Assembly: GCF_056746865.1 (NCBI RefSeq)
Contig: NZ_JBWKMP010000005.1
DNA from: a plasmid
Length of the DNA: 64,000 nt
Direction: 5' to 3' (one strand)
The position numbers were made by a program. How positions within the stretch are numbered: the stretch's first letter is position 1; every line of letters starts with the position of its first letter. Shown in pieces: positions 15,001 through 18,000 of this stretch.

Positions 15001-18000
15001 TCGTCAGAATTACATTGAGACAAGGACATTAACACTTGAGAAACCAACACACAAAGAGATAGAAAAGAGACTTAATACCTGGTTAAATAAAACAAGCCAT
15101 GAGATTAAGCATATTTTTAACCAGGCGGAGAAAACAAGGGAACTTTACAAGACATTAAGCCCTTCACAACAAATTGATTTCCTGCAAGAGAGGATAAAAG
15201 AATATGACTCAAGAGAAAAACTTAACGAAAGAAATTCTCAGCAAACGTCAGGACGAGCGGGAGGTTACAAGTCGTGTCCTAAAAAGTTTGCCAGAATCCG
15301 TCAATCTGAAGCAACAGTCGGATTGTCACGTATGCCCCAACGCGGTATGGTTTACGGAATCAATGGATTCACAAGACCCGACTCTATCAGTGTATTGTCA
15401 GATATTTCGCAGCGTGATCTGGCAGAGCAATTACCGCAAAGAGAACATCCTGGTCAGGATGTGCGACGGGATTATGATAGACAATTCACAGAGTCAGGAA
15501 TAAAAAGTCTTGAACGCTCTTCTTTTTTGTGTGAAACGATGTTTCAGACTCTGAATGAGGCGGCAGAGAAAAACGAAATTACAACGATGGCAGAAATTCG
15601 CAGAAATATTGATCCTGTCAGGTTTCTGTCTTCTGCCGCCGAGCGTTTTAATATTATTCCAGCGCAGCATAAAATCAGAACAGCAAAGGACGGCTCCCCC
15701 CGGTTTTCTGTGGGGAATCGTAATATGAACGCATCTGATTTTCTGACAAAGCATATTAATCTTGCCTGGAAAGATGCGAAATCCTTTCTGCTTGAAGTTT
15801 ATTCACAGCAGTTAGAAAACACGCCATATACGCGCTATCCAACCTACAGACGCCTTACGCATCATGAAGCCCGTGAGCGTCTTAACTCACTGAATTTATC
15901 GGAAAAAACATTACGAAATACTATCAGGTTTGAGCGTGGCAAGCTGTATAATGATCTGCGAGAGATGAGACGCGAGTTGAAGTTAATACCACGTGAACAG
16001 CGTGATATTGCCGTGGGTGTGATTGTTTACAAAAAACTAACCACACTTGAGCGTCTTTCTGAACTCGACACAGAGGGGCGACACATAATTCGTCAATATC
16101 ATGCTGACTGGCATAAGGATAAAGATGAAATGAAAGCCCTTGAACGTCTCAAAAGCTATCTCAACTTCGATGAAATCAACGCCATTTCTGCTGACGAACC
16201 CGAACTTTCGCTTCAGAAAGCGGTGGATTCCCAGCGCCGCTTAGAAGAGGCGAAAAAGGTTAACTCCAAACTAAAAGATCTTGTGATGGATAAGCAGGAT
16301 TCCAGGATTGTTTATCGCGATCAGGAATCGGAAAAGCCTGTCTTTACCGACAAAGGGAACTTTGTCGTTGCGGGTAAAAATCCCTCAAAAGAAGAGATCG
16401 GAATAATGCTTGAGTATTCCAGGGAAAAGTTTGGTGGTGTACTCAAACTTACCGGCTCTGAAGATTTCAAAAAAATGTGCGCTGAAGTTGCCGCAGAGCA
16501 GGACATGAAGATTATTTTACGCCCGGAGCAGTATCAACAGATGATGCTGGAATTAAAAGCAGAACTTCAGGGTAATAAGTTTGAGCAGGTGGAAACACAG
16601 GAAAATAGCCAGGAGTCCGAATCCAGAATAGAGAAAGGTGATGCATTGAAGGAACAGGCCACCGAACAGGAACAGGCTACAGAGCAGGCACAGGCTACAG
16701 AGCAGGCACAGGCTACAGAACAGGCACAGGCTACAGAGCAGGCACAGGCTACAGAGCAGGAACAGGCCACCGAACAGGAACAGGTCACCGAACAGGAACA
16801 GGCTACCGAACAGGAACAGGCTACCGAACAGGCACAGGCCACAGAGCAGGCACAGGCCACAGAGCAAGCACAGGTCGCAGCGCAGGCCACATCTTCATAT
16901 GATCCTGGTGTTATTACCAGGGCAAACACCCTGGATTCACAGATGCTTAGTAAAGGCACAAATGGTGAATTTGGCTATTTGAAATCTCTGGATAGCGATG
17001 AAAATGAGATTTGGGAAGTGCTGGGACATGTACCTGGAGACAGCGATGATATTTTTGACGTTGCCAGTTTTGATAATGAAAACGACGCAAAAGAATTTTG
17101 CAAAATTGTGAATGAGTTAGGTATTGACAGAACACAGGCTCTGATTCAGGAGCAGCTTACTACTCAACACGATCAGGCTACTGCGCAGGTGCATAATAAA
17201 CAGGAAATTTATTGTATAAACTTTAGTCGCTTCCATGATTTGAATGAAGGTATCGTCTTTCATTCTAAAGATGCGGCTATTCAGTGTTATGAGGAAAGCA
17301 AATCTTCTGCAATAGAAAAATATGAAAGCAATTATTTAAATGGTGATGGTTTTGATACTGTTGTGCTTATGTCTAAAACTGTCTCAACCGATGAATTATC
17401 CTCTTATCCAGAGGGGGCATTAGTAACGTTTGATAGGCCATTTGAAATAATTGCCAATTCATATGAAGAATACCGTACTCCAGTGTATGCGGTTTCTTTT
17501 TCGAAGGATGAGTTTAGTGAAGATATTAAGACTTTTGAGTCATTGCACGACGCATCTGAATATAAAAATAAGATGCTTCAGGAGCACGGGCTTAACCAGG
17601 ATGATATCTTAATCACACCTGTAACAAGAGAAGAAATCGCCTTTAAAGGAATTAAGGACGCTGTTAATGACGCTAATATGGCAGTGATGGAACAGGCGGG
17701 GGATTCGTCCAGAGAATCACCAGAAGAGATACTCGCCAGTATTTCAGCTAACGAGCATATGATCTCCGGGCTTGAAAACTTCCTGGTTAAAGACCGTTCT
17801 CAGTTCAGTTCCTGCAATGGGGATATCGTTGTGGAGGCGGAAATTACCAGGGGGGAAGGTGGTCTTTATCACCTTGCGGTCGCTGGTAAGCATGGCTTAG
17901 AGCGTGGTGATGCAGTTGCCAGAGTGGATGTTACGGAGCAGCAATTTGCCGCGATCACTGGAAAAACACCTTCTGAAGTTTTAACGGGGGACCAAACATC

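What the first reader, a model, noticed from the sequence alone, without database searches (positions are those of the whole stretch)
16639..16872. Thirteen-copy 18-bp tandem repeat inside the relaxase gene
The 1437-aa relaxase contains 13 in-frame copies of an 18-bp unit encoding (E/A)QATEQ, forming an acidic low-complexity linker between the N-terminal relaxase domain and a large C-terminal region of unknown function. Such repeats are prone to copy-number change by slippage and may tune linker length.
Basis: seen in the sequence. Interest (0 to 1): 0.5.

Follow-up and report, generated by a model that had tools for sequence, protein, structure and literature searches.

The report
Variable-length repeat linker in IncI2 relaxase
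The relaxase gene (nikB) of this mcr-1-type IncI2 plasmid really does contain 13 in-frame 18-bp repeats; they encode an acidic spacer between protein domains, their number varies from about 4 to 14 among related plasmids, and short-read assemblies often break there, so this is an ordinary coding repeat with some practical use.

Summary
ORF 14225..18538 (+, 1437 aa) is the NikB/MOBP relaxase of an IncI2 mcr-1-type plasmid.

The array lies just after the LPD7 domain (aa 691-775), about 800 residues from the N-terminus. It precedes a 550-aa modular C-terminal region with no Pfam, NCBIfam, PDB, PHROGs or PADLOC match.

The refutation test fails, because copy number is polymorphic:
- Sixteen decoded IncI2 plasmids carry 4 to 14 units.
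- Their flanks and the rest of NikB are about 97-100% identical.
- All sampled length differences are multiples of 6 nt.
- Single-unit gains and losses and hybrid junction units indicate slippage or unequal recombination.

Variation among units sits mainly at third codon positions, so the constraint is on the peptide. More distant LPD7 relaxases have a polar, acidic low-complexity stretch at the same position, some with unrelated tandem units.

AlphaFold2 predicts the array as one 74-residue helix between flexible hinges. I found no evidence that its length is tuned.

Draft assemblies commonly break at the array. One 90% protein cluster of 865 members includes many partial fragments that end or start there.

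Verdict: a real, ordinary coding repeat that forms a linker.

The parts
13887..14228 (+). nikA/mobC relaxosome accessory gene (113 aa). Its stop overlaps the nikB start.
   Evidence: ORF list. Annotated 'plasmid mobilization relaxosome protein MobC' in identical plasmids. NikA-like and MobC Pfam families on the same gene in L020.
14225..18538 (+). nikB, the IncI2 MOBP relaxase (1437 aa), annotated 'LPD7 domain-containing protein' in RefSeq.
   Evidence: nikAB is listed as essential for conjugation of IncI2 plasmid TP114 (PMC7508951).
14381..14650 (+). Relaxase (MobA/VirD2-like nuclease) Pfam match, aa 53-142. It includes the motif KPHIHIVIP.
   Evidence: Pfam PF03432, weak here (E 0.0058), but on record for many homologues. 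The identical plasmid is typed MOBP.
16295..16549 (+). LPD7 domain, aa 691-775, the last conserved folded domain before the array.
   Evidence: Pfam PF18821, E 8.5e-14. pLDDT 94-98 in the AlphaFold2 model. Conserved in all listed homologues.
16565..16651 (+). Non-repetitive acidic, polar lead-in to the array, aa 781-809 (QGNKFEQVETQENSQESESRIEKGDALK). Includes a predicted hinge at aa 804-811.
   Evidence: Composition profile. pLDDT below 50 at model residues 205-212. The 280 nt upstream of the array are nearly invariant in 16 plasmids (0-1 mismatches).
16652..16885 (+). The 18-bp tandem array: 13 in-frame units, aa 810-887, (E/A)Q(A/V)(T/A)(E/A)Q.
   Evidence: Polymorphic at 4-14 units. Predicted as a single helix, aa 814-887.
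16895..17185 (+). C-terminal module M1, aa 891-987, a small alpha/beta domain of unknown function. Absent from 1275-aa NikB variants.
   Evidence: pLDDT about 96. Homologues in other relaxases and in stand-alone small proteins P0142, P0145 and P0137. Deleted in L019 and P0003.
17171..17188 (+). Solitary degenerate copy of the unit (GATCAGGCTACTGCGCAG, DQATAQ; 14 of 18 bases match the consensus) at the M1/M2 boundary.
   Evidence: In L019 the array is fused to the sequence that follows this copy. A 14/18 match alone could be chance: my estimate is about 0.5 expected per window.
17189..17701 (+). 171-aa cassette (modules M2 and M3, aa 989-1159), absent from the 1260-aa form L017.
   Evidence: Full-length NikB alignment. 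Gene lengths of 1238-1267 aa in L005, L006, L007 and L009 suggest a similar short form but were not aligned. pLDDT about 95.
18248..18526 (+). Conserved helical C-terminal tail, aa 1342-1434 (…RHEIEKAQGRD…DGKILEAIDRF…), shared with many shorter relaxases of the family.
   Evidence: Stand-alone homologues P0134, P0139 and P0146. pLDDT about 95.

Best explanation
The array is a variable-number tandem repeat (VNTR) inside nikB. Each 18-bp unit adds six residues, (E/A)QATEQ, to a strongly acidic spacer free of bulky hydrophobic residues. The spacer joins the conserved relaxase-LPD7 core (aa 1 to about 800) to a string of small, variably present C-terminal modules.

Shown:
- Units are gained and lost one or several at a time, always in frame, on backbones that are otherwise nearly identical.
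- The unit sequence drifts mostly at synonymous positions.
- Particular unit variants expand locally within lineages.

Inferred:
- The changes arise by replication slippage and/or unequal homologous recombination between units.
- What is selected is the character of the segment (polar, acidic, soluble, helix-prone or flexible), not an exact length. Copy number therefore drifts within a permissive range of about 4-14 units, roughly 3.6-12.6 nm if helical.
- The spacer keeps the C-terminal modules mechanically independent of the DNA-processing core. [quoted passage not shown]
For: - Anatomy.
- Polymorphism: a 631-nt query spanning the array matches spans of 469-649 nt in two spread samples. There are 15 length classes among 58 plasmids and 15 among 57 E. 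coli plasmids, and all differences are multiples of 6 nt.
- Decoded arrays run from 4 to 14 units, while the 280 nt upstream show 0-1 mismatches. Full-length NikB is about 97-99% identical outside the array and the cassette indel.
- Slippage or recombination signatures: the window reads AKCOCCAPDDBGI, against AKCOCCAPDDDBGI (+1 unit), AKOCCAPDDBGI (-1 unit), AZDDBGI and AUGI (hybrid junction units Z and U).
- Lineage-specific expansions: AQTTEQ x5, AQVAEQ x8, AQATEQ x9.
- Peptide-level constraint: 34 DNA unit types encode about a dozen peptides, with variation concentrated at unit positions 3, 9, 12, 15 and 18.
- Conserved position, unconserved sequence: the 113 homologues examined mostly show a hydrophobic-poor Q/E/A/T/P/S stretch right after LPD7 (read by eye; my crude length metric returned zero for many). 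Several have unrelated tandem units: ATPEQ, QT(G/E)PEQA, PAPAEVAAPxAQEQ, ASAENExTE.
- Structure: LPD7 and module M1 are confident folds. The array is one helix (pLDDT about 80-90) between hinges with pLDDT below 50. Low pTM values (0.46 and 0.52) fit beads on a string.
- Relaxases must unfold for T4SS transit (PMC5826034, title and abstract only).
Against: - No functional data link the array or its length to transfer.
- The helix prediction rests on no covariation, and AlphaFold2 tends to draw helices for E/Q/A-rich repeats. With net charge -18 and no K or R, an isolated helix may not be stable.
- The epidemic mcr-1 lineage keeps exactly 13 units in most records (303 of 523 at 99% or higher). 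This could reflect recent clonal spread (my reading) or selection for that length.
- Some short arrays in public records could be assembly collapses, because short-read assemblers demonstrably fail here.
Confidence: 0.75

Rival explanations
1. The spacer length is functionally tuned. As a semi-rigid helical ruler it sets the reach between the relaxase core docked at the coupling protein and the C-terminal modules. Copy-number changes would then be adaptive, for example for transfer efficiency or host range.
For: AlphaFold2 predicts a continuous 74-residue helix with pLDDT about 80-90. The successful mcr-1 lineage is dominated by one length. A variable QQP repeat in the coupling protein TraD of F-like plasmids has been discussed as a possible source of plasmid-specific differences (PMC3245843).
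Against: Lengths from 4 to 14 units occur on backbones with 0-1 flank mismatches, with no sign of preferred classes beyond clonal abundance. Distant homologues have linkers of very different length and chemistry. Arrays were unchanged in longitudinal or sibling isolates: Ec-050 T0 versus T20, and the PG201800xx mouse-gut strains. No phenotype data exist.
Confidence: 0.12
2. The acidic repeat is itself an active module. It could mimic DNA to counter restriction in the recipient, or serve as a recognition or translocation signal for the secretion system, with more units giving more activity.
For: Net charge -18 on a regular scaffold. The protein belongs to the 'polyvalent protein' setting, in which mobile elements deliver anti-defence domains with their DNA (PMC5512222).
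Against: No match to any anti-restriction or defence-related family. Charge density is far lower than in known DNA mimics (my knowledge of Ocr and ArdA, not tested). Homologues replace the segment with proline- or alanine-rich sequences of different charge pattern. A 4-unit array is tolerated.
Confidence: 0.06
3. The copy number in this window, or much of the apparent polymorphism, is an assembly artefact of a 234-bp repeat.
For: Draft assemblies break exactly at the array. One contig ends at GDAL, one codon before unit 1. A protein cluster of 865 members includes N-terminal fragments of 808-815 aa and C-terminal fragments of 547-565 aa that begin inside the last units. A 3-unit form comes from a draft contig (P0159).
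Against: The identical 13-unit array recurs in hundreds of independently finished plasmids. Divergent arrays differ in unit composition, not only number, and collapse cannot create that. The same variant lengths recur in unrelated records.
Confidence: 0.04
4. The repeats act at the DNA level, as iteron-like or centromere-like protein-binding sites or as a regulatory element that happens to lie inside nikB.
For: Direct repeats of 17-22 bp are typical of iterons and some partition sites (general knowledge).
Against: The array is in frame within an uninterrupted ORF. Variation among units is mostly synonymous, so the peptide rather than the DNA word is conserved. No further copies occur elsewhere in the 64-kb window. 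No promoter-like or terminator-like sites lie in 16300..17200. Related relaxases keep a low-complexity peptide at this position but not the DNA repeat. The reverse-strand ORFs 16553..16867 and 16567..16959 are low-complexity shadows of the repeat.
Confidence: 0.02

Closest known systems
Variable QQP repeat in the C-terminal extension of TraD, the coupling protein of F-like plasmids
   Same: A Q-rich short tandem peptide repeat inside a conjugation protein. It lies in an extension that links a conserved core to an interaction region, and its length differs between closely related plasmids: 5 residues in F and 23 in R1 (PMC3245843).
   Different: The protein differs (coupling ATPase versus relaxase), as do the unit (QQP versus (E/A)QATEQ) and the chemistry (proline-rich and unstructured versus acidic and helix-prone). 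The array here is much longer, up to 84 aa.
Q-linkers: glutamine-rich interdomain tethers of bacterial multidomain proteins (Wootton and Drummond 1989, cited from memory)
   Same: A Q/E-rich, hydrophobic-poor segment at a domain boundary whose sequence is poorly conserved while its position is conserved.
   Different: Classical Q-linkers are about 15-25 residues and are not tandem DNA repeats. This one is 24-84 residues and built from an 18-bp VNTR.
In-frame coding VNTRs of bacterial proteins, such as the repeat regions of streptococcal and staphylococcal surface proteins used for typing (general knowledge)
   Same: The unit length is a multiple of 3, copy number varies among near-identical alleles, the inferred origin is slippage or unequal recombination, and the repeat can serve as a strain marker.
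   Different: Those proteins are surface-exposed and under immune selection. This one is a cytoplasmic, T4SS-exported DNA-processing enzyme of a plasmid.
Polyvalent proteins of conjugative elements (Iyer et al. 2017, PMC5512222)
   Same: A large multidomain protein of a conjugative plasmid that carries an LPD-family domain (LPD7) and a variable set of extra modules and is probably delivered with the DNA.
   Different: The C-terminal modules here match none of the described enzymatic or anti-restriction domains. The main text of that paper does not contain the words 'linker' or 'low-complexity'.

Membership tests
In-frame coding VNTR (slipped-strand or unequal-recombination repeat) | Head-to-tail repeat whose unit length is a multiple of 3, inside an intact ORF | tested here: met
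   18-nt unit, 13 copies, inside the 1437-aa ORF.
In-frame coding VNTR (slipped-strand or unequal-recombination repeat) | Copy number differs among alleles that are otherwise nearly identical | tested here: met
   4-14 units, with 0-1 mismatches in the 280 nt upstream and about 97-99% protein identity elsewhere.
In-frame coding VNTR (slipped-strand or unequal-recombination repeat) | Variants differ by whole units and show hybrid units at deletion junctions | tested here: met
   +1 D unit, -1 C unit, and hybrid units Z and U at larger deletions. All sampled length differences are multiples of 6 nt.
Interdomain linker | Lies between independently folding domains and is itself hydrophobic-poor and low in complexity | tested here: met
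   LPD7 (pLDDT 94-98) and M1 (about 96) flank it. The array has no residue more hydrophobic than Val or Ala. Hinges with pLDDT below 50 lie on both sides.
Interdomain linker | Position conserved in homologues while sequence and length are not | tested here: met
   The 113 homologues listed mostly show a polar, acidic stretch right after LPD7 with varied sequence and their own repeats. This was read by eye; the automatic length metric was crude.
Interdomain linker | Function insensitive to exact sequence or length in experiments | not testable with these tools
   Requires conjugation assays with engineered arrays.
MOBP relaxase (NikB-type) | N-terminal relaxase nuclease domain with a histidine motif | tested here: inconclusive
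   Pfam PF03432 is only weak for this sequence (E 0.0058) but is on record for many homologues. The HIHIVIP motif is visible in the translation. MOB-suite types the identical plasmid as MOBP.
MOBP relaxase (NikB-type) | Adjacent relaxosome accessory gene, and required for transfer | tested here: met
   nikA/mobC lies immediately upstream and overlaps the nikB start. nikAB is listed as essential for TP114 conjugation (PMC7508951).
Phase-variable contingency locus | Repeat changes switch the gene on and off by frameshift or promoter spacing | tested here: not met
   The unit is 18 nt. No sampled length difference departed from a multiple of 6 nt, and the ORF stayed intact in every decoded allele. 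The one frameshifted allele (L018) is disrupted elsewhere in the gene.
ER/K single alpha-helix (SAH) domain | Alternating acidic and basic residues that give i to i+4 salt bridges | tested here: not met
   The array has 18 E and no K or R. A helix is nevertheless predicted.
Iteron or centromere-like DNA repeats | DNA word conserved, usually non-coding, with further copies near rep or par genes | tested here: not met
   The array is coding, variation is mostly synonymous, and there are no copies elsewhere in the window.

The most novel reading that the evidence does not exclude
The unit may be more than a spacer. It could act as a recombination joint that lets this relaxase family gain, lose and shuffle C-terminal cargo modules. 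Module M1 is bracketed by the array and a solitary degenerate unit, and natural variants have exactly that interval deleted. The helical array could also act as a length-adjustable ruler whose copy number is selected for transfer performance in different hosts.
Probability: 0.1. Interest if true: 0.5.

Novelty: new member of a known kind. Interest (0 to 1): 0.28.

Why it matters
IncI2 plasmids are a main vehicle of the colistin-resistance gene mcr-1, and nikB is needed for their transfer.

The practical consequences are the clearest:
- The array is a systematic breakpoint in short-read assemblies. It splits the relaxase gene into 'partial' proteins and linearises the plasmid contig there, so relaxase typing and gene-presence calls from draft genomes can be misled.
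- It is by far the fastest-changing stretch of an otherwise 97-100% conserved gene. It could therefore serve as a cheap PCR or long-read marker to separate sub-lineages of epidemic IncI2 plasmids.

Biologically, it shows that this relaxase family keeps a compositionally defined but sequence-free spacer after the LPD7 domain. In front of that spacer's far end sits a swappable set of orphan modules whose function is the more interesting open question.

I found no paper describing this repeat in the searchable open-access library. That does not exclude a description elsewhere.

Tried and rejected
- **C-terminal 550 aa, sequence searches.** Pfam, NCBIfam, PDB sequences, PHROGs and PADLOC gave nothing significant.
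- **Homologue search.** An exhaustive representative search with the C-terminal region gave only 29 hits among 1.84 billion proteins, so no deep alignment was possible.
- **Internal repeats.** BLASTP of the C-terminal region against itself did not confirm the repeated small-domain motif I thought I saw by eye. I dropped that idea.
- **Reverse-strand ORFs.** ORFs 16553..16867 and 16567..16959 translate to L/C/S/G/F and C/S/V/A low-complexity strings. I treat them as shadows of the repeat.
- **Promoter and terminator scan.** None found in 16300..17200.
- **Record NZ_MN232184.** Its nikB region is 43 nt longer and looked like an out-of-frame array variant. Its array is the normal 13 units, and the reading frame is already broken near codon 119, upstream of the array.
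- **Literature.** Searches for the repeat (IncI2 / nikB / tandem repeat; LPD7 / relaxase; nikB / variable region / in-frame; TP114 / nikB) found no description of it.
- **Census.** A complete census of all 523 records was not possible, because only 60 rows are listed per search. I used two evenly spread samples instead.
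Full report

Yes. Tandem Repeats Finder reports an array at 16650..16874 with period 18, 12.5 copies, 91% matches and score 275. A 54-nt super-period scores 331. The consensus unit with up to 3 mismatches occurs nine times in the 64-kb window, all inside the array, against 0.03 expected by chance.

The array lies in ORF 14225..18538 (+), 1437 aa. In that frame, 16652..16885 reads EQATEQ EQATEQ AQATEQ x4 EQATEQ EQVTEQ EQATEQ x2 AQATEQ x2 AQVAAQ. That is 13 hexapeptides, the last one degenerate.

**2. Where does the window come from?**

The gene is 100% identical to that of pEC1266-mcr, which is typed IncI2, MOBP and MPF_T. It matches 524 plasmid records, mostly Escherichia, Salmonella, Shigella and Klebsiella. 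In complete E. coli genomes it occurs in 297 of 5426, always on plasmids.

It is annotated 'LPD7 domain-containing protein', 'relaxase' or nikB. A nikA/mobC gene sits directly upstream. nikAB is among the genes listed as essential for conjugation of the IncI2 plasmid TP114 (PMC7508951).

**3. Anatomy of the protein**

Pfam finds a weak relaxase nuclease match at aa 53-142 (E 0.0058) and a clear LPD7 domain at aa 691-775 (E 8.5e-14). The array (aa 810-887) therefore does not abut the catalytic domain. It follows LPD7, after a short acidic lead-in (aa 781-809).

The array is Q26 A20 E18 T12 V2, with net charge -18 and no basic residue.

An AlphaFold2 model of aa 600-990 gives these results:
- LPD7 has pLDDT 94-98.
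- The first downstream module has pLDDT about 85-94.
- The array is one continuous helix, aa 814-887, with pLDDT about 80-90.
- Low-confidence hinges flank it at aa 804-811 and 890-911.

I treat the helix as a prediction, not a finding. There is no covariation behind it, and such compositions are often drawn as helices. It is not an ER/K-type single helix, because it has no K or R. If it is helical, each unit adds about 0.9 nm, from standard helix geometry.

**4. The C-terminal 550 residues**

- The region has no match in Pfam, NCBIfam, PDB sequences, PHROGs or PADLOC.
- An exhaustive search of 1.84 billion representative proteins gave only 29 hits, mostly fragments of the same relaxases. A few are small stand-alone proteins that match single modules.
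- Mapping these hits divides the region into modules M1 to M5 plus a conserved helical tail.
- AlphaFold2 models most modules with high confidence but with pTM of only 0.46, which fits independent beads on a string.
- Fold searches found no informative relatives outside the family.
- The modules are variably present. A 171-aa cassette (aa 989-1159) is missing from the 1260-aa form L017, and M1 is missing from the 1275-aa form L019/P0003.

'Function unknown' remains the honest description of this region.

**5. Does the copy number vary?**

A 631-nt query spanning the array matched record spans from 469 to 649 nt in evenly spread samples. There were 15 length classes among 58 full-length plasmid hits, and 15 among 57 E. 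coli plasmid hits. Every difference was a multiple of 6 nt.

I fetched and decoded 16 variant loci:
- They carry 4 to 14 units.
- The 280 nt upstream have 0-1 mismatches and the 250 nt downstream have 0-12.
- Full-length NikB is about 97-99% identical everywhere except the array and the cassette indel.

Naming each distinct 18-nt unit with a letter makes the events visible:

| Plasmid | Unit string | Change relative to the window |
|---|---|---|
| window | AKCOCCAPDDBGI | reference |
| pMCR-M19736 | AKCOCCAPDDDBGI | one D gained |
| pYUYZMC13-MCR | AKOCCAPDDBGI | one C lost |
| pE15017_00 | AUGI | larger deletion, hybrid junction unit U |

Other lineages have expanded their own variants: AQTTEQ x5, AQVAEQ x8 and AQATEQ x9. 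Two plasmids with zero flank mismatches have entirely different unit strings. The array therefore evolves much faster than its surroundings.

This is the pattern expected from slippage or unequal recombination. The mechanism itself is inferred, not observed.

**6. Stability**

The array is not wildly unstable.
- The exact 13-unit version is present in 303 of 523 plasmid records and 143 of 297 E. coli records, at 99% identity or higher over the 631-nt region. This reflects the clonal spread of the mcr-1 lineage.
- Paired or sibling isolates keep the same length: Ec-050 T0 and T20, and the PG201800xx mouse-gut strains.

**7. Protein-level or DNA-level constraint?**

Thirty-four distinct DNA units encode about a dozen peptides. 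Variation is concentrated at unit positions 3, 9, 12, 15 and 18, which are all third codon positions. The remainder is mostly the E/A, A/V and A/T alternations.

There are no other copies of the unit in the window. No promoter-like or terminator-like sites lie nearby. The two reverse-strand ORFs across the array are low-complexity shadows of the repeat.

An iteron-like or centromere-like role is therefore very unlikely. A phase-variation role is excluded by the 18-nt unit and by the absence of out-of-frame variants. The one frameshifted allele seen is broken elsewhere in the gene.

**8. Wider family**

Homologues at 37-60% identity align only over the N-terminal 55-60% of the query, from the relaxase domain through LPD7. 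I inspected 113 of them. By eye, the sequence after the LPD7 C-terminal helix is mostly a polar, acidic stretch rich in Q, E, A, T, P and S, of very variable length. My automatic length metric was crude and returned zero for many of them.

Several carry their own unrelated tandem units: ATPEQ x4, QT(G/E)PEQA x5, PAPAEVAAPxAQEQ x4-5 and ASAENExTE x3. Different sets of modules follow. In one case this is a primase-like region, and in others a ~95-aa module is duplicated 2-3 times.

The position and character of the linker are conserved, but its sequence is not, and tandem expansion has arisen repeatedly. This is the strongest comparative argument that the array is a spacer, not a specific functional motif.

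**9. Best explanation and rivals**

Best explanation (confidence 0.75): an in-frame coding VNTR that encodes an acidic spacer, either helix-prone or flexible, between the relaxase-LPD7 core and a modular C-terminal region. Its length drifts within a permissive range.

Rivals:
- A length-tuned ruler (0.12).
- An active acidic module such as a DNA mimic or secretion signal (0.06).
- An assembly artefact (0.04).
- A DNA-level element (0.02).

None of the rivals has positive evidence beyond resemblance.

**10. Assembly consequence**

A draft contig ends at ...GGTGATGCATTG (GDAL), one codon before the first unit.

The 90%-identity protein cluster around that fragment has 865 members. Of the 40 members read, most were annotated 'partial'. 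They include N-terminal fragments of 808-815 aa, and C-terminal fragments of 547-565 aa that start inside the last units. One such fragment was seen on 48 contigs, the longest 62 kb, which is a whole plasmid linearised at the array.

Very short arrays from draft data (for example 3 units in P0159) should be treated with caution.

**11. Comparison with what is known**

The closest analogue in conjugation is the variable QQP repeat in the C-terminal extension of TraD from F-like plasmids: 5 residues in F and 23 in R1 (PMC3245843). More generally, the array behaves like a Q-linker built from a VNTR.

It meets the tested criteria for an in-frame coding VNTR and for an interdomain linker. It fails the criteria for a contingency locus, an ER/K helix and iterons (see the membership table).

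I found no description of this repeat in the searchable literature.

**12. Verdict**

The array is real, correctly interpreted in the main, and ordinary in kind. It has modest biological interest. It has some practical value as an assembly hazard and as a possible marker for IncI2 plasmid sub-lineages.

The more intriguing loose end is the orphan, swappable C-terminal modules. There is also a hint that unit-like sequences mark the boundaries at which those modules are lost.

Noticed in passing
window 18660..19634: The ISApl1 transposase gene just downstream of nikB has a 1-nt deletion relative to pEC1266-mcr. This splits it into two ORFs (18633..19142 and 19139..19633). It could be a real inactivation or a sequencing error.
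   Followed up: partly
window 17171..17188 and locus L019 (NZ_CP042249): A solitary degenerate copy of the 18-bp unit (DQATAQ, 14 of 18 bases) sits at the M1/M2 boundary. In 1275-aa NikB variants the array is fused to the sequence right after it, which deletes module M1. This suggests that unit-like sequences act as deletion or recombination joints.
   Followed up: partly
window 17189..17701: A 171-aa cassette (modules M2-M3) is absent from the 1260-aa NikB of L017. Gene lengths of 1238-1267 aa in L005, L006, L007 and L009 suggest similar short forms.
   Followed up: partly
L020 (AASSKI010000090.1) 5300..5424; proteins P0007, P0147-P0160: Draft assemblies break exactly at the array. One 90% protein cluster of 865 members includes many 'partial relaxase' fragments that end at aa 808-815 or start inside the last units.
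   Followed up: yes
L018 (NZ_MN232184.1): The nikB region of this plasmid is 43 nt longer than the window's, and its reading frame is broken by a stop at codon 119, so the gene appears to be a pseudogene. Its array is the normal 13 units.
   Followed up: partly
window 59604..59671 and 61366..61452; also 5860..5923 and 1166..1217: Other short tandem repeats were reported by TRF: 33-nt units at 97% and 78-86% identity, and 24-25-nt units. They are unrelated to nikB.
   Followed up: no
proteins P0022, P0025, P0032 (related relaxases): A ~95-aa C-terminal module (…ARQTVEEVKALLADNEMRRMMM…) is present in 2-3 tandem copies in related relaxases. This is a second, larger-scale form of repeat expansion in the same region of the family.
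   Followed up: no
protein P0055 (related relaxase): One homologue carries DUF5710 plus a primase-like C-terminal region after its linker, which shows that the post-LPD7 position accepts very different cargo.
   Followed up: no
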